A stretch of DNA of 64,000 nt. It comes from an uncultured Acidobacteriaceae bacterium (GTDB lineage: Bacteria > Acidobacteriota > Terriglobia > Terriglobales > Acidobacteriaceae). The stretch covers positions 42,815 through 106,814 of the forward strand of contig CAWBUJ010000006.1 of the NCBI GenBank assembly GCA_963791975.1, given 5' to 3'. Under the pieces are notes generated by a model. The model made no database searches. It was given only the letters and a program-made list of their open reading frames with translations, and was not told the DNA's origin. Below are positions 4,094 to 11,239 of this stretch, piece after piece. A program made the position numbers and the translations under genes. How positions within the stretch are numbered: the first letter of the stretch is position 1; the number at the start of each line of letters is the position of its first letter.

Positions 4094-5674
4094 ATGTCAT
4101 CTACCGACGAACGAAACGCCAGTTCCGCAGCGGTGTCTCCCGCTCAAGAGCCCAGCGCCGAGGTTTACGCGGTTCAAGGCGCCGACCCGGAAGTGCAGGC
4201 TTATGGCATGGCCAAGTATTCGCGCTCCGCCCTGTCAATGCGCGAGTCTCTGGCCGAGATCAGCGAGCAAAAAGCGGAGAAGTTCCTCAACACCTTCTAC
4301 TTCCAGTACGGCCATCGCAGTATTGCGGATTTGGCCCATATTGCATTTGCCATCGAGCGCTTGTCGATCCTCGCGGCTACGGTGGTCGTAGACGAGCCTC
4401 GCTGGGACGGACAGGAGCGCTCCACCCGCTATCAGGATTTCCAGAAAAGCGGATACTTCGTTCCCGGCTTTGGAGATGACGTTCACGCCTGCGCACTGTA
4501 CCGTGAAACCGTTGATCTTCTATTTGCCGAGTACCGTCACTTTTCCGGCGAAATGTTCTCCTATCTCCGCGAGCGCACGCCCCAGCCGCCAGAGATGAAG
4601 CAGGAAGCCTACGAGCGTACCTTGCGCGCCCGCGCCTTCGACTTATCGCGATACCTGCTGCCATTGGCGACCAACACCTCGCTTGGCCAGATCGTTAGTG
4701 CCCGCACTCTCGAGACACAGGTCTCGCGACTGCTTTCCGATCCCCACGCTGAGGTGCGGCGTCTGGGCGAATTGCTGAAACAGGCGGCACGCGAACCCGC
4801 CTACAATCTGGGCCGCGCCAGCGCCCGCGATCTGGTGCAGGAAATCCAGCGCGAGTGCCCATCGCTCGGCGAACGCGCCAACCAGCTGCTTTTGCGTGAT
4901 ATCCGTGTCGCGCCCACCTTGATGAAATATGCCGAGCCGTGCGCCTACGAAGTCGAGACTCGTCGTGAGTTGATCGCCGCCGCCGCGGAACTGCTGGGCG
5001 GAATCGCCATCCAGAACGCGCCTTTAGTCGATCTGCTCGACGATGAGCCGCTTGAGGTCGAACTCGCTGCCACGCTGCTGTATCAGTATTCACATCATTC
5101 TTACCGGCAGATACGCCAGGTGGTGTATGCTCTGCCCGAATCGCAGCGACGCCAGATCGTCGATCTCGGCTTGCGCCATCGTGGCCGTCACGACGAGGTT
5201 TCGCGGCCATTCTGCGCCGGGCAGCATTTCCGCTTCGATATCCTGATGGACATTGGCGGATTCCGCGACATGCATCGCCACCGCCGCTGTGTGCAGATCG
5301 TGCAGGGCTACACCACCGCAAACGGTTACGACAGGCCGCAGGAGATCGATGGGGCAGGGCTGGCCGCCCGCTACGACTCGGTGATGGCGCGCGCACGGGA
5401 TACCGTCGTCCAACTTGCTGCCCGCGATGCCGTCGAGGCGGAGGAGCAGTCGCAATATGCCATCCCGCTCGCTTTTCGCAAACGTACGCTGTTTAAGATG
5501 GATTTGTCCGAAGCCATCTACATCAGTGAGCTGCGCACCGGCGCGGCCGGCCATTTTTCCTATCGTAACGTCGCCTATGCGATGTACCAGGCCGTAGCTG
5601 AGCGTTATCCAGCGCTGGCAAAATACTTCCGGGTGACCGACGTCCGTGAGCCGGTGGACTTGCTCAAGCGTTAG
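4094..5674 (+). CDS. Long-form ThyX-like (thymidylate synthase complementing protein family) protein
   Basis: 526 aa. FYFQYGHRSIADLAH and DMHRHRRCVQ (RHR motif) and ELRTGAAGH resemble ThyX signatures. Length is about twice canonical ThyX. Confidence 0.55.
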   Translation: MSSTDERNASSAAVSPAQEPSAEVYAVQGADPEVQAYGMAKYSRSALSMRESLAEISEQKAEKFLNTFYFQYGHRSIADLAHIAFAIERLSILAATVVVDEPRWDGQERSTRYQDFQKSGYFVPGFGDDVHACALYRETVDLLFAEYRHFSGEMFSYLRERTPQPPEMKQEAYERTLRARAFDLSRYLLPLATNTSLGQIVSARTLETQVSRLLSDPHAEVRRLGELLKQAAREPAYNLGRASARDLVQEIQRECPSLGERANQLLLRDIRVAPTLMKYAEPCAYEVETRRELIAAAAELLGGIAIQNAPLVDLLDDEPLEVELAATLLYQYSHHSYRQIRQVVYALPESQRRQIVDLGLRHRGRHDEVSRPFCAGQHFRFDILMDIGGFRDMHRHRRCVQIVQGYTTANGYDRPQEIDGAGLAARYDSVMARARDTVVQLAARDAVEAEEQSQYAIPLAFRKRTLFKMDLSEAIYISELRTGAAGHFSYRNVAYAMYQAVAERYPALAKYFRVTDVREPVDLLKR

Positions 5675-5806
5675 TCTCAGCCGGTGGACGAAGCCCGTTG
5701 GCACGCCTCTGAGCCGCCTGCCCGCGCAAAGAAGTTCTCTAGCGGCCATTTTCGGTATAGCATGTTCGCTGCCAGTGGAATTGCGGCCAAATGTGGAGGA
5801 GATCCC

Positions 5807-6445
5807 ATGAGTCCTGTCCCGATGCGAGATAAAGATTCCAAGGAAAAGCCGGCGAAGCCCCATCCCGTAGAAACTGCGGTCGCTGAAACCGCAGAGGCGA
5901 GCGGGGCCAGCGTGGAAAAAATACGCGACATCCTCTTCGGCTCCCAGATCAAGAACTACGAGTCGCGCTTCAGCCGGCTGGAAGACGCCCTGGCGCGGGA
6001 GACCGCCGAGATCAAGGACGCCATGCGCCGACGGCTGGACTCGCTGGAAGCCTTCTTCAAGAGCGAGACCGAGTCCCTTGCAGCGCGCCTGAAAACCGAG
6101 CGGGACGAGCGCGAGGAGCTCCTGAACAACATCTCGCGCGAGTTGAAGGCCTCGTCGGCGCAGCTCTCCAAGAAGATCCTCGACCTCGACAACAAGGCCG
6201 CCCAGGACCGCAGTGCCGCTCGCCAGGAGTTGATGGCCGAGTCCCGCAAACTGCTCGACGAGATTCGCCAGCGCAACGATTCTCTCAGCGCGCTCCTCGA
6301 AACCCGGGTGCAGGAGTTGCGCAATTCCAAGACTGACCGCTCCGCGCTGGCTGCCCTGTTCGTCGAACTGGCCGTGCGTCTGAAGGACGAAAGCGACAAC
6401 GGCAGGAGCAAACCCAAGCCGATCCGGAGTGCTACCGAGGCGTGA
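5807..6445 (+). CDS. Coiled-coil protein of unknown function
   Basis: Start chosen at ATG 5807, preceded by GGAGGAG. The 212 aa are rich in heptad-like E/K/R/L segments (LEDALARETAEIKDAMRRRLDSLEAFF...). Confidence 0.6.
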   Translation: MSPVPMRDKDSKEKPAKPHPVETAVAETAEASGASVEKIRDILFGSQIKNYESRFSRLEDALARETAEIKDAMRRRLDSLEAFFKSETESLAARLKTERDEREELLNNISRELKASSAQLSKKILDLDNKAAQDRSAARQELMAESRKLLDEIRQRNDSLSALLETRVQELRNSKTDRSALAALFVELAVRLKDESDNGRSKPKPIRSATEA

Positions 6446-6452
6446 GCATTCT

Positions 6453-8033
6453 ATGGGGTCAACGCCCGCTGACCTGAAACGCGATTCCGAGTACGATCCG
6501 GACCGTGATGAACTGGCCGAGCTTCGCGCCTTGCTGCTCGGGCAGCAGATGGTCGAGCTGCAGGCGCTCCAGGCGAGGCTCGACGATCCCAACATCCGCA
6601 CCGAGGAGATCAGCCAGATTCTGGGCAAGGCAGTCGCGCTTTCCATCAAGCGTGACGGCGGCTTGCAGCGCTCCTTATATCCCGTCGTCGAGCAGGCGCT
6701 GAAGATCTCGGTCGCCAAGAACCCCGCCATTCTCGCCACCTCTCTGGCCCCCATGATCGGAGACGCCGTTCGCAAGGCGGTTGCCAACGCGCTGCGCGGC
6801 ATGGCTGAATCCATCAACTTCACCCTGGAGCGCAGTCTTTCCTGGGAGAGCGTAAAGTGGCGCTTCGAAGCCCGGCGGACCGGCAAATCGTTCGGCGAGA
6901 TCGTCCTGCTGCGCAATCTCAGCTACAAGGTGCAGCAGGTCGTTCTCATCCAGCGTGAAACCGGCTCGGTCTTGCAGTACCTCGCGGCGCCCGGCGAAGG
7001 AGTAAAGGAAGCCGAACTGGTATCCAGCATGCTCACGGCGATTGGCGATTTCGTGACCGATTCGTTTGGCACCAAGCGCTCCCAGGAGTTTGAGGAATCC
7101 CGGACCAACGACTTCATTCTCTGGGTTAGTCACGGACCGCAGGCGTCGCTGGCTGGCACGATTCTCGGTGCTCCTCCGCCGGAGCTGAAGGATGTCTTCG
7201 CCCGCGAGAACGAGCTCATCCATCAGGAGTTCGCGGTTCAGCTCGCCTCGTTCAGCGGGGACGCGAGCATCTTCGACGGCGCGCGTCCGCATCTGCAGAA
7301 CTGCCTTCTCGGCCACTCCGAGCGACCGCGCAAGTCGCGGCGCTGGCTGATCGCTGTCGCTGCCATGCTGTTTGCAGTCACGGCCTTCGGACTTCTCGTC
7401 TATCGCCGGAACGTCCGCTGGAACCATTACGTCGCGCGGCTGCAGAGCGAGCCTGGCGTCGTTCTCACCGGCTGGGACAAACATTGGGGCCATTACGACG
7501 TCACCGGATTGCGCGATCCTCTGGCTGCCGATCCGCGGAAGTTAGCGGCCGCTTTTGGCATCGATCCCGCGAAGGTGGAGGAACACTTCGGTCCATATCA
7601 GTCGCTCGACCGCCGCTTCGCGTTGCAGCGCGAATTCGACTCCGAGAAGCAGGCGCTCGAGCAATTGATGATCCTGTTCCCCGTCAATTCCAGCGCCTTG
7701 CTGCCGGACCAATCGGTCCGATTGGACTCGCTCGAAGAACACCTGGATAAATTGCAGCAAGCGGCTCATTCTCTGGGCCGGCAAATTCATCTCACGATTT
7801 ACGGCCGCGCTGACCAGACCGGCGCGGAGAGCAAGAACGAGGCGTTGAGCAGGCAGCGGGCGGAACGCGTGTTTGACGCCTTGCGCGAGCGGGGCATTTC
7901 GCCGCAGCTGATTTCCGCCGTCGGTCTGGGAGACAGCGAGCTGATTCGTCACGGATCGGAGGCTTATCAGTTGGAAGTCAACCGCAGTGTTTCGCTGAAG
8001 GTGGAATCGCAGCCACCGGGAGACGAGCAATGA
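6453..8033 (+). CDS. Membrane-spanning OmpA-family protein with a large cytoplasmic N-terminal region (coiled-coil plus Roadblock-like segment)
   Basis: One TM segment (WLIAVAAMLFAVTAFGLLVY). C-terminal OmpA_C signature IYGRADQTGAESKNEALSRQRAERVFDAL. Start could also be the alternative codon at 6429. Confidence 0.75.
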   Translation: MGSTPADLKRDSEYDPDRDELAELRALLLGQQMVELQALQARLDDPNIRTEEISQILGKAVALSIKRDGGLQRSLYPVVEQALKISVAKNPAILATSLAPMIGDAVRKAVANALRGMAESINFTLERSLSWESVKWRFEARRTGKSFGEIVLLRNLSYKVQQVVLIQRETGSVLQYLAAPGEGVKEAELVSSMLTAIGDFVTDSFGTKRSQEFEESRTNDFILWVSHGPQASLAGTILGAPPPELKDVFARENELIHQEFAVQLASFSGDASIFDGARPHLQNCLLGHSERPRKSRRWLIAVAAMLFAVTAFGLLVYRRNVRWNHYVARLQSEPGVVLTGWDKHWGHYDVTGLRDPLAADPRKLAAAFGIDPAKVEEHFGPYQSLDRRFALQREFDSEKQALEQLMILFPVNSSALLPDQSVRLDSLEEHLDKLQQAAHSLGRQIHLTIYGRADQTGAESKNEALSRQRAERVFDALRERGISPQLISAVGLGDSELIRHGSEAYQLEVNRSVSLKVESQPPGDEQ

Positions 8034-8557
8034 TCCAGAAGAAAATCTGCATGCTGGGTTCTTTCGGAGTGGGCAAGACCAGTCTGGTCGCGCGTTTCGT
8101 GCAAGGAATTTTCTCCGGCAAATATCTCAGCACCGTGGGCGTAAAGATTGACAAGAAGGAAATCAAGGTGGGCGACCAGGATGTGCTGCTGCTGCTCTGG
8201 GACCTGGCCGGGGAGGATTCCCACTCGCAAGTCCAGACCTCCTACCTGCGCGGCGCGGCCGGATACTTCCTCGTCGTGGACGGTACCTTTGCCGAATCGC
8301 TGGTCACGGCCAAGAGCATTCACAAGCGGGCCATCGAGGCGGTCGGCGAAATCCCGTTCATGCTCATCGTGAACAAGTCCGACCTGTGGGACCGCTGGGA
8401 GATCACCGTTCCGGAGCTGGAAAAGCTGCAAGCCGAAGGATGGAGCGTGCAGGTCACCAGCGCCAAAACTGGCGAAGGCGTGGAGAAAATGTTCCAGACC
8501 ATGACCGAGCAGGTCCTGCGCAACTCTGCTCCGAGCGAGGCCGCCACCGAGGCGTAA
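8030..8557 (+). CDS. Ras/Rab-like small GTPase
   Basis: G1 GSFGVGKT, G3 WDLAGED, G4 NKSD, G5 SAK. The start overlaps the upstream stop in ATGA. Confidence 0.85.
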   Translation: MIQKKICMLGSFGVGKTSLVARFVQGIFSGKYLSTVGVKIDKKEIKVGDQDVLLLLWDLAGEDSHSQVQTSYLRGAAGYFLVVDGTFAESLVTAKSIHKRAIEAVGEIPFMLIVNKSDLWDRWEITVPELEKLQAEGWSVQVTSAKTGEGVEKMFQTMTEQVLRNSAPSEAATEA

Positions 8558-8748
8558 ACGCTCGCGCCGTGATGTAGCTTCAGCAACCGAAAGACGTTCG
8601 TAGGGTGGACGTGAAGACCAGTCGAAGATCTGCGGCACTGCCTCACCAAGCCGACCCAAAGGGCTGGATGTCAGAGAACTGTCTCTTCTCCAGTGAAGGG
8701 GAAGGTGTTTTCTCTTGACGTCTCCTCTCATAAAACCCACCAATATTT

Positions 8749-11115
8749 CTACTTACTCTTCTTCTCCAAATCCTTCAGTTCTATGACGGATGGAAGATAT
8801 TCAACGAAATCCTTGGGGCAGCCATCGCTGGCGCTGCGAAAAAGAGCGAGGGCTTCGGGGCGTTCGCCACGCAGAGCGCGATACTCCCCAACGTAAAAGC
8901 TATATTCACACTTCTGGTCGCTGTTGCTACCGGCCGCGTGCAAGACATCCTCCGGCGTGCTTTGTCCTAAATAGAGTTGGATCACGGGGCCGGGCCAGTT
9001 CGACAGATTCAAGGCTGCTGCATTGGTCTTCAGTTCATCTTTCCCATCCGTTCCCGCCTTCGCGCGTGACAGGTACAGCCATATGACGCGGTAGGGATCG
9101 GTCGGGTCAAGCTGCAAGTTCCGGCTGAAATCCTGTTGCGCCTCGGAGTAGTGACCAGCATAGAGGTTTGCCAGTCCCCGGTTCAGAAGCGCCGGGGAAG
9201 CATTCGGATTCACGCGCAGGACCTGGTCAAAGCTTTGAATGGCCTGGTCGTAATCGCCTTTGGCGAAGTAAGCCGCGCCCGCAGCAAACGAGGCAGCCTC
9301 CTGCGCATCGTGGTCGTTAGCGGGACTCAGCGAAATGGCGGGTTTGCCAGCCAATCTCTGGGCGATATGCTGGCCCACGCGATCAGCGAAAGTTGCGGAT
9401 GTGTTCATCAGAACGACCACCGCATAATCGGCATTGGGATTAAAGAATGCGAAGCTGCTGTATCCACCCGTTGCGCCGTTGTGCCAATAGCTGCCGGTAG
9501 CGGCAACGTACAGCCACGCGAGCGCAATACGCATGCCAGGCAAGGCGTCTGCGCGAAGCTCATGGGATTGGGCAAGCGCCGCCGGAAGGGTCTTACCGCT
9601 CGGCGTCTGGGTGGCCGCGGAAGGCAGTTTGTCCGGATGCAGGTTGGCCTGCAGGTACGTAAGCATGTCGTCGGCGGTTGAACGAATCGCTCCCGCCCCG
9701 GCCAATGCGTCCAGGTCCCAGGCATGGGCCGGTTGGTGCGCCATGTTGTGACCTGTGATAAACCTGAGTTTTTGCTCGGCTGAAAGCGCAATGACCGTAT
9801 CCTTCATCCCCAGTGGGCCGGTAATCTCGTTCTGGAGCAACTCGGAATAGGGAACCCCGGCACGATCAGCCAGGGCCTGCCCGAGTAGTCCGAAACCAAG
9901 ATTGCTATAAAGGAAAGTAGCGTCAGCCGGCTTTGCGACTCCGTGCTTTGCCAGGAAGGAGTACAGATTTGCTGATCGATAGTCGGCATAGGGATTGCTA
10001 TTGTCAGCGGGGTGGAAATTGTCTGGCATCCGCGGCAATCCCGAGTGCTGTGTAGCCAAGTCAAGCAGCGTGATTTCGCTGCCGGCGGGTTTGGCTACGG
10101 TTCCGGCGGGCAACAATTCGCGTACCGGTTCATCGAATTTCACTTTCCCTTGTTCGACCATCTGTGCCAGCAAGAGTCCGGTAAAGGTCTTGGTGATGGA
10201 ACCAATTTCAAAGATTGAGTCCGGCTTGGCGGTTCCGTAAGCAAAAACCTGCTTTTCACCGTGGTCAACAATCCCTATAGTCACACCCGCCGCCGTCGAT
10301 GGGGCGAGCGCCCCGCTGGCGAGCGCCTGCGCCAGGTCCTTGCTCAAGACGGTCTGCAACTGGGCTGCCGGCACGGGAGCCATGGCCGCATCGAAGGTAG
10401 GAAGAGCGGCAGGCGCAGGGGAAGTCGCGACCGCTTGTCTTTCGAAGTTCAAGGGCACCGGCTGGCCTTGAGTCCATGTACCTGTGAGTGTCTTGCCATC
10501 GCCGGACAGGGTCCCACTCCAGTGGCCGCTCACGACAGGAACGTCATAAGAGAACTTGTTCCCTTCGAGCAGAACATGCGCGCAGTCGAGTCCCATTGCG
10601 CCCTGGTCCAGGCTATCGACGGAACAAGATTCCTTGCCCGAGGCGTCGCTGTTGACGTGTAACTGTATGCGCAGCGATTGCGGGCCGGCCTTCAGCGTCC
10701 CCAGCCATATTCCGTCCACCGCAGAAGGCTTGGCCGCGGGAACGAAGGTGTCACGGCTGAAATTCAGAGGCGCAGGAGTGCCCTGGTTCCAGGTACCGGT
10801 CAGCACTGTACCTTGCTTATCGACAGTTCCCTTCCAGCTACCATTTACCGCAGGAACGGCGAAACTTAGAGATTGCCCGTCGAAATGAAAATCAGAGCAT
10901 GGGATATCTGACGCGCCTTGATCGGGACTATCCAGGCTTCCGCTTAGAGCGCCGTCAGCGCCCGCCTTCACGTGCAGCTTTAGATGCAGAGGACCGAGCG
11001 ATCCTACATAGTCGCCAGCGATATCTGGCTTTTGCTGCGCGAAGGCCAATGAGCAGGTAAAGGCGAGCCACCCACAAAAGAGTGTCAGCAGCATCGAGCG
11101 CTGTACCTGCATCAT
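8749..11115 (-). CDS. Secreted serine hydrolase (class C beta-lactamase/PBP family) with duplicated N-terminal domain and C-terminal TPR repeats
   Basis: SITKTF (SxxK) motif. Signal peptide after the Met pair at 11115. Two ~110-aa tandem N-terminal repeats. TPR-like C-terminus (AYFAKGDYDQAIQSFDQVLRVNPN...). Confidence 0.8.
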   Translation of the reverse strand: MMQVQRSMLLTLFCGWLAFTCSLAFAQQKPDIAGDYVGSLGPLHLKLHVKAGADGALSGSLDSPDQGASDIPCSDFHFDGQSLSFAVPAVNGSWKGTVDKQGTVLTGTWNQGTPAPLNFSRDTFVPAAKPSAVDGIWLGTLKAGPQSLRIQLHVNSDASGKESCSVDSLDQGAMGLDCAHVLLEGNKFSYDVPVVSGHWSGTLSGDGKTLTGTWTQGQPVPLNFERQAVATSPAPAALPTFDAAMAPVPAAQLQTVLSKDLAQALASGALAPSTAAGVTIGIVDHGEKQVFAYGTAKPDSIFEIGSITKTFTGLLLAQMVEQGKVKFDEPVRELLPAGTVAKPAGSEITLLDLATQHSGLPRMPDNFHPADNSNPYADYRSANLYSFLAKHGVAKPADATFLYSNLGFGLLGQALADRAGVPYSELLQNEITGPLGMKDTVIALSAEQKLRFITGHNMAHQPAHAWDLDALAGAGAIRSTADDMLTYLQANLHPDKLPSAATQTPSGKTLPAALAQSHELRADALPGMRIALAWLYVAATGSYWHNGATGGYSSFAFFNPNADYAVVVLMNTSATFADRVGQHIAQRLAGKPAISLSPANDHDAQEAASFAAGAAYFAKGDYDQAIQSFDQVLRVNPNASPALLNRGLANLYAGHYSEAQQDFSRNLQLDPTDPYRVIWLYLSRAKAGTDGKDELKTNAAALNLSNWPGPVIQLYLGQSTPEDVLHAAGSNSDQKCEYSFYVGEYRALRGERPEALALFRSASDGCPKDFVEYLPSVIELKDLEKKSK

Positions 11116-11239
11116 GACGCTTGTCCGGATGCGTCGGTCTTGCCGCGATGGATATAGGCGATCACTTCCGTACCGTTGTGCAATTGTTAGTCTCATCGCT
11201 TGTAATCTCCTGCAGCAGACGATTTGCATGTTTCGTTTT

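What the first reader, a model, noticed from the sequence alone, without database searches (positions are those of the whole stretch)
5807..8557. Operon linking a Ras-like GTPase to a transmembrane OmpA-domain protein with a Roadblock/MglB-like cytoplasmic segment
Three same-strand genes are tightly packed. They encode a 212-aa coiled-coil protein, a 526-aa protein and a 175-aa small GTPase; the GTPase start overlaps the upstream stop in ATGA. The 526-aa protein has a roughly 300-aa cytoplasmic part, one TM helix and a periplasmic OmpA_C peptidoglycan-binding domain. Within the cytoplasmic part, VQQVVLIQRETGSVLQYLAAPGEGVKEAELVSSMLTAIGDFVTDSF...DFILWVSHGPQASLAGTILG resembles the strand-strand-helix-strand-strand layout of Roadblock/LC7 proteins. 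MglB, the GAP partner of the bacterial Ras-like GTPase MglA, is such a protein. If that holds, a GTPase regulator module would be covalently tethered through the membrane to the cell wall. I do not recognise this as a described system.
Basis: partly seen in the sequence, partly recalled or inferred. Interest (0 to 1): 0.75.

Follow-up and report, generated by a model that had tools for sequence, protein, structure and literature searches.

The report
Rup GTPase operon, Roadblock-like membrane anchor
The three-gene operon (coiled-coil protein, wall-anchored membrane protein, Ras-like GTPase) is real and conserved across bacterial phyla; it was already catalogued in 2014 as the unstudied 'Group 1 Rup' system, and what is new here is that the membrane protein's unknown domain is predicted to adopt the Roadblock/longin fold used by known GTPase regulators.

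Summary
Three tightly packed + strand genes encode a 212-aa coiled-coil protein (5807-6445), a 526-aa protein (6453-8033) and a 175-aa Ras-family GTPase (8030-8557, ATGA overlap). The 526-aa protein has a cytoplasmic part, one TM helix and a periplasmic OmpA-like domain.

The fold guess holds. An AlphaFold2 model has an alpha-beta-beta-alpha-beta-beta-beta-alpha unit at residues 147-259. All 50 listed Foldseek PDB matches are Roadblock/longin proteins (Mon1-Ccz1, MglB, LAMTOR, TRAPP). No sequence-level match to Robl_LC7 exists.

Synteny is strong. 70 of 80 species-representative loci from Acidobacteriota, Cyanobacteria, Nitrospirota and Armatimonadota keep the same gene order.

The claim that the system is undescribed is wrong. 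Wuichet and Sogaard-Andersen (2014) listed exactly this neighbourhood (DUFY > DUFX:OmpA > Rup) as the 'Group 1 Rup' system. The window GTPase lacks the catalytic G3 glutamine, as they describe. They left DUFX unassigned and stated that Rup GTPases are not predicted to pair with MglB homologues.

The usual fourth gene, a signalling output with a conserved N-domain, is absent from this window.

Whether the Roadblock-like domain binds or regulates the GTPase is untested. Verdict: a new member of a known but experimentally uncharacterised kind, with a useful structural lead.

The parts
5795..5801 (+). Shine-Dalgarno-like GGAGGAG, 5 nt upstream of the ATG of the first gene
   Evidence: Read directly from the sequence.
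5807..6445 (+). Gene 1: 212-aa cytoplasmic coiled-coil protein ('DUFY' of the Group 1 Rup neighbourhood). It carries the conserved N-terminal motif DKIRDILFGxQMRDYExRFARLEE.
   Evidence: ORF. No real Pfam family. Homologues lie immediately upstream of the OmpA-domain gene in 74 of 80 loci, with phmmer E 1e-29 to 1e-98 for most. Alignment A7. No TM segment.
6453..8033 (+). Gene 2: 526-aa bitopic inner-membrane protein ('DUFX:OmpA').
   Evidence: Full-length AF2 model has mean pLDDT 88.5. The N-terminal 295 aa define a large family: 3166 50%-identity clusters at E<=1e-3 and 1329 at E<=1e-30.
6453..6881 (+). Residues 1-143: disordered N-terminus, then five or six long helices. This part includes the LxELRxLLLGxxxxxLxxLxxRLDD motif and the invariant W136-R137 / R142-T-G144 motif.
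   Evidence: Secondary structure. Conservation. Motif similarity to gene 1 by hhalign, P = 0.0014.
6891..7229 (+). Residues 147-259: Roadblock/longin-like alpha/beta domain (H147-155, E159-167, E173-178, H187-205, E215-218, E221-227, E231-238, H243-259).
   Evidence: AF2 models; the 10-residue pLDDT block means over this region run from about 71 to 98. In Foldseek against PDB, all 50 listed matches are Roadblock/longin proteins (E 9e-5 to 1e-3, prob 1.00, target TM 0.25-0.68), including MglB 3t12_B and 1j3w.
7344..7400 (+). Residues 298-316: single transmembrane helix (WLIAVAAMLFAVTAFGLLV).
   Evidence: Kyte-Doolittle maximum of 2.46. The model has a continuous helix at 297-332.
7449..7667 (+). 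Residues 333-405: small conserved periplasmic beta-beta-alpha-beta module plus a linker helix (EPGIVVT...GLRDPLAxDP motif).
   Evidence: pLDDT above 95. Invariant G335, G352, R354, D355, P356 and P361. Three of 70 family members hit Pfam BON.
7668..8012 (+). Residues 406-520: OmpA-like peptidoglycan-binding domain.
   Evidence: Pfam OmpA, E 3e-12. NCBIfam OmpA/Pal/YiaD-type hits. Foldseek to Pal and OmpA C-terminal domains, E about 3e-8, target TM 0.8-0.88. D454 and R469 are invariant.
8030..8557 (+). Gene 3: 175-aa Ras-superfamily small GTPase of the Rup Group 1 type. G1 is GSFGVGKT, G3 is WDLAGE (Glu in place of the catalytic Gln), G4 is NKSD and G5 is SAK.
   Evidence: Pfam Ras, E 1e-30. 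The closest solved structures are Rab23 and Rab35, E about 1e-24. Motif conservation in 80 homologues is.
8684..8705 (+). Terminator-like hairpin plus T-run about 125 nt after the GTPase stop; a possible operon end.
   Evidence: This is weak: the number of such sites in the region is no higher than in shuffles.

Best explanation
This is an acidobacterial copy of the 'Group 1 Rup' small-GTPase signalling module (DUFY > DUFX:OmpA > Rup). Proposed mechanism, steps marked. The 526-aa protein sits in the inner membrane. Its C-terminal OmpA-like domain is bound to peptidoglycan (architecture shown, binding inferred). Its cytoplasmic part presents a Roadblock/longin-like domain (fold predicted here). 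As in every characterised Roadblock/longin protein, that domain probably dimerises and serves as the docking and regulatory platform (GAP, GEF or scaffold) for the co-translated Ras/Rab-like GTPase (inferred). The coiled-coil protein shares an N-terminal motif with the membrane protein and is likely a stoichiometric partner of its helical N-terminal region (inferred). The GTPase has Glu in place of the catalytic Gln and Phe/Tyr at the Ras-Gly12 position. It therefore cannot hydrolyse GTP the Ras way and must depend on partner-supplied residues or be a slow switch (inferred). In most other genomes the output is a fourth protein: a conserved N-domain fused to a hybrid histidine kinase or other signalling domains. 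That gene is missing from this window, so here the output partner is encoded elsewhere or the trio acts alone. Functionally the module resembles a wall-anchored counterpart of the actinobacterial conservon or of Ragulator-Rag. It would report an envelope or wall state to a cytoplasmic G-protein switch.
For: Gene structure and domains. Identity with the published Group 1 Rup neighbourhood: text; Table S2 rows such as 'DUFY>DUFX:OmpA>Rup>' for Anabaena, Nostoc, Nitrospira and Alteromonas. G3 lacks Gln: Glu in 66 of 80 homologues and Gln in 3 of 80. Conserved trio: 70 of 80 loci in the order CC-OmpA-GTPase, and a 4-nt overlap between gene 2 and the GTPase gene in 25 of 72. Trio also present in relatives only 47-48% identical, with different flanking genes. 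Roadblock/longin fold. All proteins matched are partners or regulators of small GTPases or of G-domain-like proteins (MglB-MglA, Mon1-Ccz1-Ypt7, LAMTOR-Rag, TRAPP-Rab, CPLANE-RSG1). Helix alpha2 (VSGMLTAIQDFVxDSF), together with the WRxEAxRTG motif upstream of the domain, is among the most conserved segments of the family. Fourth-gene family: 40 of 44 downstream ORFs share an N-domain, and 20 of 44 carry HATPase_c, with HisKA in 17, REC in 16 and Hpt in 15.
Against: No direct evidence shows that the Roadblock-like domain touches the GTPase; no multimer model, coevolution analysis or fusion supports it. None of 271 family proteins is fused to the GTPase or to the coiled-coil protein. There is no sequence-level relationship to Robl_LC7/MglB; only 2 of 40 segments give marginal Fuz_longin_1 hits at E 0.012. 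Foldseek E-values are modest (about 1e-4), and the tool does not print which query residues were aligned. Roadblock and longin topology cannot be told apart without coordinates. Wuichet and Sogaard-Andersen favoured the fourth protein's invariant Gln as the trans-acting catalytic residue, which would place the GAP elsewhere. The fourth gene is absent from the whole 64-kb window.
Confidence: 0.55

Rival explanations
1. The Roadblock-like domain is only a dimerisation or sensing scaffold of the membrane protein and does not regulate the GTPase directly. The GTPase is controlled instead by the fourth-gene N-domain (trans glutamine, as proposed in 2014) or by the coiled-coil protein.
For: The 2014 proposal of an invariant Gln in the N-domain of the fourth protein. 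That N-domain follows the GTPase gene in 40 of 44 loci, often with a 1-4 nt gap or overlap. There is no sequence similarity to MglB.
Against: The clade containing this window keeps the Gln-less GTPase and the trio without an adjacent fourth gene. The 2014 table lists trio-only loci in Bacteroidetes and Chloroflexi. The partner that is always present is therefore DUFX, not the fourth protein. All 50 listed fold matches are GTPase-associated platforms.
Confidence: 0.25
2. The GTPase is a hydrolysis-dead, constitutively GTP-bound subunit (like Rnd or RhoH). The module is then a static wall-anchored complex controlled by expression or binding rather than by a GTPase cycle.
For: Phe/Tyr sits at the Ras-Gly12 position in 76 of 80 homologues, and Glu replaces Gln61 in 66 of 80. 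From general knowledge of Ras, both kinds of substitution abolish Ras-type catalysis.
Against: The G1, G4 and G5 motifs and the switch I Thr are strictly conserved. Rap-type and MglA-type GTPases show that alternative catalytic solutions exist. Association with two-component outputs suggests a switchable signal.
Confidence: 0.12
3. The operon is a structural envelope device: a MotB/Pal-like tether or the stator or anchor of a motility or secretion machine. The GTPase would be an assembly factor.
For: OmpA-like domain with intact peptidoglycan-binding residues. Weak PADLOC hits to the ZorB OmpA part and the ZorA coiled-coil tail.
Against: No MotA/ExbB/TolQ-like partner and no secretion or motility genes occur in the window flanks or in related loci. 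The TM helix has no acidic residue. The recurrent neighbours are signalling proteins. The PADLOC hits are generic coiled-coil and OmpA matches at E 1e-4 to 1e-3.
Confidence: 0.05
4. The operon is an anti-phage defence or conflict system.
For: Small GTPases and TM/OmpA effectors occur in some conflict systems.
Against: There are no significant PADLOC families. The operon appears vertically inherited, sits in core-like contexts with housekeeping flanks and has no effector domains.
Confidence: 0.03

Closest known systems
Group 1 Rup system (Wuichet and Sogaard-Andersen 2014, Genome Biol Evol 7:57; PMC4316618)
   Same: Same gene order and content, DUFY (coiled-coil) > DUFX:TM:OmpA > Rup. The GTPase has Ras-like G1-G5 motifs but no G3 glutamine. 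The distribution overlaps (Cyanobacteria, Nitrospirae).
   Different: No Acidobacteria were in the 2014 Group 1 set. This window lacks the 'fourth highly conserved gene', the signalling output. DUFX was left as an unknown domain there, and the Rup family was stated not to pair with MglB homologues. Here DUFX is predicted to contain a Roadblock/longin-like fold.
MglA/MglB polarity module (Myxococcus, Thermus)
   Same: A small Ras-superfamily GTPase is encoded next to a protein with a Roadblock-type fold. MglB structures 3t12_B, 1j3w and 3t1r are among the best fold matches.
   Different: MglB is a small soluble protein that matches Pfam Robl_LC7, whereas this domain matches no such model and is embedded in a 526-aa membrane protein. 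The GTPase is Rup-type (WDxxGE), not MglA-type. A GAP role is untested.
Actinobacterial conservon / AGPS (CvnA histidine kinase, CvnB Roadblock, CvnC DUF742, CvnD GTPase)
   Same: Four-part logic of membrane sensor/kinase, Roadblock protein, protein of unknown function and small GTPase. In most related loci a histidine kinase follows the GTPase.
   Different: Here the Roadblock-like domain, not the kinase, carries the TM segment and the extracytoplasmic (wall-binding) domain. The GTPase belongs to Rup rather than MglA Group 2. The third protein is a coiled-coil, not DUF742. The kinase is missing from this window.
Eukaryotic Roadblock/longin GTPase platforms (Ragulator-Rag, Mon1-Ccz1-Rab7, TRAPP-Rab)
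   Same: These give the best fold matches: 5ldd_B, 6b9x_B, 2j3t_C and 7b6d_C. A membrane-tethered Roadblock/longin platform pairs with a Rab/Ras-like GTPase, and the GTPase's nearest solved relatives are Rab23 and Rab35.
   Different: The similarity is fold-level only (9-20% identity). Tethering is by a TM helix plus a peptidoglycan-binding domain instead of lipidation. No evidence exists for hetero-oligomeric Roadblock pairs or for GEF activity.
MotB / Pal / OmpA C-terminal peptidoglycan anchors
   Same: The C-terminal 115 residues have the OmpA-like fold and the conserved Asp/Arg pair. The topology, N-in with a single TM, matches MotB.
   Different: There is a 296-residue conserved cytoplasmic part instead of a short tail. 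There is no MotA-like partner and no acidic TM residue.

Membership tests
Group 1 Rup system | Single-domain Ras-superfamily GTPase with Ras-like G1, G2, G4 and G5 motifs | tested here: met
   Pfam Ras, E 1e-30. GxxxxGKT, switch I Thr, NKxD and SAK are invariant or nearly so in 80 homologues.
Group 1 Rup system | G3 motif lacks the catalytic glutamine | tested here: met
   WDLAGE in the window. Glu in 66 of 80 homologues and Gln in 3 of 80. The criterion is stated.
Group 1 Rup system | Adjacent gene for a cytoplasmic coiled-coil protein (DUFY) | tested here: met
   Window 5807-6445. Homologous in 74 of 80 related loci.
Group 1 Rup system | Adjacent gene with a conserved unknown domain (DUFX), a TM helix and a C-terminal OmpA domain | tested here: met
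   The same order as the Table S2 rows.
Group 1 Rup system | Fourth conserved gene: a signalling output (histidine kinase or GGDEF/EAL) with a conserved N-terminal region | tested here: not met
   An HMM built from 40 N-domains finds nothing in six-frame translations of the whole window. Close relatives also lack it next to the trio. It is present in 40 of 44 more distant loci. Table S2 itself lists the neighbourhood only as the trio.
Group 1 Rup system | Placement of the GTPase inside the Group 1 clade of the published Rup tree | not tested
   The reference sequences of the 2014 tree were not retrieved. Membership rests on motifs and neighbourhood, and on homology to GTPases in Nostoc, Anabaena and Nitrospira loci with the same trio.
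MglB / Roadblock-LC7 (Pfam PF03259) | Roadblock alpha-beta-beta-alpha-beta-beta-beta fold | tested here: met
   AF2 secondary-structure order H-E-E-H-E-E-E-H at residues 147-259. Foldseek matches to MglB, LAMTOR2, LC7 and Asgard Roadblock. Roadblock versus longin was not resolved.
MglB / Roadblock-LC7 (Pfam PF03259) | Sequence match to the Robl_LC7 profile or to solved Roadblock proteins | tested here: not met
   No Robl_LC7 hit for the full protein at E<=1 or for 40 domain segments at E<=10. A profile search of PDB sequences found only two chance hits to designed repeat proteins.
MglB / Roadblock-LC7 (Pfam PF03259) | Partner GTPase of the MglA family | tested here: not met
   The GTPase has a Ras-like DxxG (WDLAGE), and its nearest solved relatives are Rab23 and Rab35. 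The 2014 classification places such proteins in Rup, not MglA.
MglB / Roadblock-LC7 (Pfam PF03259) | Homodimer that binds the GTPase and stimulates hydrolysis | not testable with these tools
   No multimer prediction or biochemistry was available.
OmpA-like peptidoglycan-binding domain (PF00691) | Profile match above the gathering score, OmpA-like fold, and conserved Asp and Arg that contact the peptide stem | tested here: met
   47.2 bits against a cut-off of 27.2. Foldseek target TM 0.8-0.88 to Pal and OmpA. D454 and R469 are invariant.
Actinobacterial conservon (AGPS) | CvnA kinase + CvnB (Robl_LC7) + CvnC (DUF742) + CvnD (MglA Group 2) in one operon | tested here: not met
   No kinase, no DUF742 and no Robl_LC7 match were found in the operon. 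The relationship is an analogy only.
Known anti-phage defence systems (PADLOC) | Significant match of the components to a defence-system model set | tested here: not met
   Only generic coiled-coil and OmpA hits at E 1e-4 to 4e-3, and none for the GTPase.

The most novel reading that the evidence does not exclude
Rup GTPases are the prokaryotic lineage proposed in 2014 as the source of the eukaryotic Ras superfamily. In this reading they have their own, previously unrecognised Roadblock/longin-type partner: DUFX, a family of more than 3000 sequence clusters with no Pfam model. DUFX would form a dimeric, membrane- and wall-anchored platform that binds and regulates a Rab-like GTPase lacking the Ras catalytic residues. 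It might supply an Arg or Gln in trans from the invariant WRxEAxRTG or VEQVFLIH motifs. The Roadblock/longin-GTPase partnership would then not be confined to MglA/MglB. It would extend to the bacterial relatives of Rab/Ras, giving a bacterial counterpart of Ragulator, Mon1-Ccz1 or TRAPP that couples cell-wall state to two-component signalling.
Probability: 0.4. Interest if true: 0.7.

Novelty: new member of a known kind. Interest (0 to 1): 0.5.

Why it matters
The Group 1 Rup module is widespread. More than 575 hits were found among GTDB species representatives, in many phyla including model cyanobacteria. I found no experimental study of it in the searchable library. The 2014 survey concluded that Rup GTPases have no MglB-type partner and left their GAP or GEF unknown. 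A confident Roadblock/longin-like fold in the always-present DUFX protein gives a concrete, testable candidate for that missing regulator. It also tightens the analogy with conservons and with eukaryotic Roadblock/longin platforms for Rab and Rag GTPases. That bears on how GTPase-platform pairs evolved before eukaryotes. For this window specifically, it extends the system to Acidobacteriota and shows a trio-only variant.

Tried and rejected
(1) Sequence-level Roadblock membership was tested and rejected. Pfam on the full protein and on 40 domain segments at E<=10, plus a profile search of all PDB sequences, gave no Robl_LC7/MglB hit. Only marginal Fuz/Intu longin hits appeared, in 3 of 40 segments.

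(2) I looked for the fourth Group 1 Rup component in the window with an HMM of 40 N-domains against six-frame translations. There were no hits.

(3) I tested whether that N-domain is related to the DUFX Roadblock region by hhalign. It is not (probability 0.3%).

(4) I looked for Rosetta-stone fusions of DUFX with the GTPase or the coiled-coil protein among 271 family proteins. None were found.

(5) A defence-system reading was checked against PADLOC. Only generic hits appeared.

(6) Literature searches for follow-up work on Rup, on locus tags of model-organism copies and on Roadblock plus OmpA found nothing beyond the 2014 paper.

(7) The first Pfam scan of 131 members exceeded the residue limit and was repeated with 70 members.

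(8) A stator (MotB-like) reading was rejected: there is no MotA-like neighbour and no acidic TM residue.


Full report
OBSERVATION. The three ORFs exist as described.

Gene 1 is best started at the ATG at 5807 (212 aa). A GGAGGAG lies 5 nt upstream, and homologues are about 200-225 aa. Gene 2 starts at the ATG at 6453, 7 nt after the gene 1 stop, and ends at 8033. Gene 3 (8030-8557) overlaps it in ATGA.

Pfam assigns gene 3 to Ras (E 1e-30). It assigns gene 2 only to OmpA at residues 409-507 and gives gene 1 nothing above threshold. NCBIfam agrees. Hydropathy finds exactly one TM segment, residues 298-316 of gene 2. A terminator-like hairpin follows the GTPase gene at 8684-8705, but that scan is not above chance.

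Upstream lies a 526-aa ThyX-like gene. Downstream lies a convergent 826-aa gene. So the trio is a self-contained operon.

CONSERVATION AND SYNTENY. The 526-aa protein has full-length homologues down to about 46% identity in Terriglobia and Korobacteraceae metagenomes.

Its cytoplasmic 295 residues alone retrieve 3166 representatives of 50%-identity clusters (1329 at E<=1e-30) in an exhaustive HMMER search. Of 70 diverse members, 55 carry OmpA, 3 carry BON, and none has any Pfam model over the N-terminal domain.

A scan of GTDB species representatives gave at least 575 confirmed loci. The best 80 come from Acidobacteriota (several classes), Cyanobacteria (Nostoc, Anabaena, Tolypothrix, Microseira, Gloeobacterales), Nitrospirota and Armatimonadota. 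A Planctomycetota member appeared.

In those 80 loci I searched all ORFs with the three window proteins:
- 70 have the order coiled-coil > OmpA protein > GTPase.
- 4 have the GTPase 2-4 kb upstream.
- The other 6 lack one of the three genes in the stretch held; some of them sit at a contig end.
- 25 of 72 gene 2/gene 3 junctions are 4-nt overlaps.

The coiled-coil protein is a genuine family with strongly conserved motifs, not merely a compositional match (E mostly 1e-29 to 1e-98; alignment). Flanking genes differ between relatives, so selection acts on the trio itself.

ALREADY DESCRIBED. Wuichet and Sogaard-Andersen (2014, PMC4316618) split prokaryotic Ras-superfamily GTPases into MglA and Rup families.

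Their 'Group 1 Rup' proteins lack the G3 glutamine. These proteins sit in a neighbourhood with three other genes:
- a predicted cytoplasmic coiled-coil protein;
- a signalling output protein whose N-terminal region has an invariant glutamine.

Their Table S2 lists 'DUFY>DUFX:OmpA>Rup>' for Anabaena variabilis, Nostoc, Nitrospira defluvii, Mesorhizobium, Sorangium, Alteromonas and others.

The window GTPase fits this description. G1 is GSFGVGKT, G3 is WDLAGE, G4 is NKSD and G5 is SAK. Among 80 homologues the Gln61-equivalent is Glu in 66 and Gln in 3.

Two points are new relative to that paper. No Acidobacteria were in their Group 1 set. [quoted passage not shown] I found no later paper on the system.

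THE ROADBLOCK QUESTION. I modelled residues 1-296 with a 138-sequence alignment. The result had mean pLDDT 81, with 92-98 over most strands. I then modelled the full protein with 131 sequences, mean pLDDT 88.5.

Both models give five or six N-terminal helices (about 16-143). They then give H147-155, E159-167, E173-178, H187-205, E215-218, E221-227, E231-238 and H243-259, followed by two short helices and the TM helix.

Foldseek of the 296-residue model against the PDB returned 40 matches at E<=1e-3. Every one of the 50 listed matches is a Roadblock or longin protein:
- Mon1-Ccz1 (5ldd_B, 9e-5)
- MglB (3t12_B, 2e-4; also 1j3w, 3t1r, 3t1s)
- LAMTOR subunits
- TRAPP Bet5/Trs23-type subunits
- AP sigma subunits
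- Rag C-terminal domains
- Asgard Roadblock proteins
- dynein LC7

Target-normalised TM scores are 0.44-0.68 for the single-domain targets and about 0.25-0.28 for the longer multi-domain chains.

The tool does not print aligned query ranges. The only beta-containing part of the query is 158-239, so the matches must cover it; this is my inference.

At the sequence level there is no relationship. No Robl_LC7 hit was found. The PDB profile search gave no hit. Only marginal Fuz_longin_1 and Intu_longin_1 hits appeared, in 3 of 40 segments.

So the fold claim is supported, family membership is not, and Roadblock versus longin cannot be decided without coordinates.

REST OF THE 526-aa PROTEIN. After the TM helix come a small, very confidently modelled beta-beta-alpha-beta module with the invariant GLRDPLAxDP motif, a linker helix, and an OmpA-like domain. 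The OmpA-like domain superposes on Pal and OmpA C-terminal domains (target TM up to 0.88). It keeps the peptidoglycan-contacting Asp454 and Arg469.

FOURTH COMPONENT. In related loci the ORF after the GTPase shares a roughly 130-150-aa N-domain in 40 of 44 cases. That domain is fused to HisKA-HATPase_c-REC-Hpt in about 17-20 of them. In others it is fused to PAS, GAF or cyclase domains, or stands alone as a protein of about 133 aa in cyanobacteria.

An HMM of that N-domain finds nothing anywhere in the 64-kb window. The closest relatives also lack it next to the trio. This lineage therefore has a trio-only arrangement, yet its GTPase still lacks the G3 glutamine. That argues that the always-present DUFX or coiled-coil proteins, rather than the fourth protein, are the obligatory partners.

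The N-domain is unrelated to the Roadblock region by hhalign.

MECHANISM.

Shown:
- the operon structure;
- the domain architecture and topology;
- the predicted Roadblock/longin fold;
- the atypical catalytic positions of the GTPase;
- cross-phylum synteny;
- the frequent link to two-component outputs.

Inferred:
- the Roadblock-like domain dimerises and docks or regulates the GTPase at a wall-anchored site;
- the coiled-coil protein binds the helical N-terminal region, with which it shares a 25-residue motif (hhalign P = 0.0014);
- the periplasmic part senses or simply fixes the complex to peptidoglycan;
- the GTPase state is passed to a kinase where one is present.

Candidate trans-acting residues are the invariant W136-R137, R142 and Q162. 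This is speculation.

The main rival is that the Roadblock-like domain is only a scaffold and that the GAP is the fourth protein, as suggested in 2014. A second rival is that the GTPase is hydrolysis-dead, because Phe/Tyr occupies the Gly12 position in 76 of 80 homologues. Stator-like and defence readings have little support.

VERDICT. The locus is a new (acidobacterial, trio-only) member of a known but experimentally uncharacterised kind. The Roadblock/longin-like fold of DUFX is, as far as the searchable literature shows, an unreported and testable lead to the missing regulator of Rup GTPases.

Noticed in passing
window 5912-5986 (gene 1, residues 36-60) and window 6513-6587 (gene 2, residues 21-45): The coiled-coil protein and the N-terminus of the OmpA-domain protein share a motif of about 25 residues: VEKIRDILFGSQIKNYESRFSRLED versus LAELRALLLGQQMVELQALQARLDD. 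The family consensuses are DKIRDILFGxQMRDYExRFARLEE and LxELRxLLLGPExxxLxxLxxRLDD. hhalign aligns them with P = 0.0014. This may be a shared docking or heterodimerisation element.
   Followed up: partly
window 8057-8080 (GTPase P-loop) and 8198-8215 (G3): The residue at the Ras-Gly12 position is Phe/Tyr in 76 of 80 homologues, and the Gln61-equivalent is Glu in 66 of 80. Both positions are incompatible with Ras-type catalysis, so the hydrolysis mechanism, if any, must be unusual.
   Followed up: partly
window 4094-5674: The upstream gene encodes a 526-aa protein with two matched stretches of the Thy1 (ThyX) family. That is about twice the usual ThyX length, which suggests an internally duplicated or fused flavin-dependent thymidylate synthase.
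   Followed up: no
L037:7209-7610, L044:7208-7609, L072:7212-7613 and similar; L002:8092-9987: The gene after the GTPase in 40 of 44 related loci begins with a conserved N-domain of about 130-150 aa that has no Pfam model. It stands alone (about 133 aa) in many cyanobacteria. Elsewhere it is fused to hybrid histidine kinases, PAS/GAF or cyclase domains. It is absent from this window.
   Followed up: partly
L001:4262-5113, L002:4200-5066, L003:135-1001 (minus strand): In the 47-48% identical Terriglobia loci, a divergently transcribed gene for a Response_reg + HATPase_c_2 protein (RsbW-like kinase fused to a receiver) sits directly upstream of the trio. It is not present in the window.
   Followed up: no
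L017, L027, L046, L059: In four loci the GTPase gene lies 2-4 kb upstream of the coiled-coil and OmpA-protein pair instead of downstream. The 2014 table shows a similar rearranged order for Chloroflexi.
   Followed up: no
L055 (56-1643 and 4184-7216); L004 and L006 (same MAG); L056 and L075 (same MAG): Some genomes carry two copies of the module. In L055 they lie in tandem on one contig, which indicates paralogous expansion.
   Followed up: no
window 7449-7667 (gene 2, residues 333-405): A small periplasmic beta-beta-alpha-beta module sits next to the membrane. It has invariant G335, G352, R354-D355-P356 and P361, and pLDDT above 95. Three of 70 family members hit Pfam BON. Its role (sensing, wall or lipid contact) is unknown.
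   Followed up: no
window 8749-11229 (minus strand): This is a convergent 826-aa ORF. Read by eye, not checked with any tool, it has a hydrophobic N-terminal segment, an S-x-x-K motif (SITK) typical of serine beta-lactamase/PBP-like enzymes, and a C-terminal repeat-like region. It is not part of the operon.
   Followed up: no
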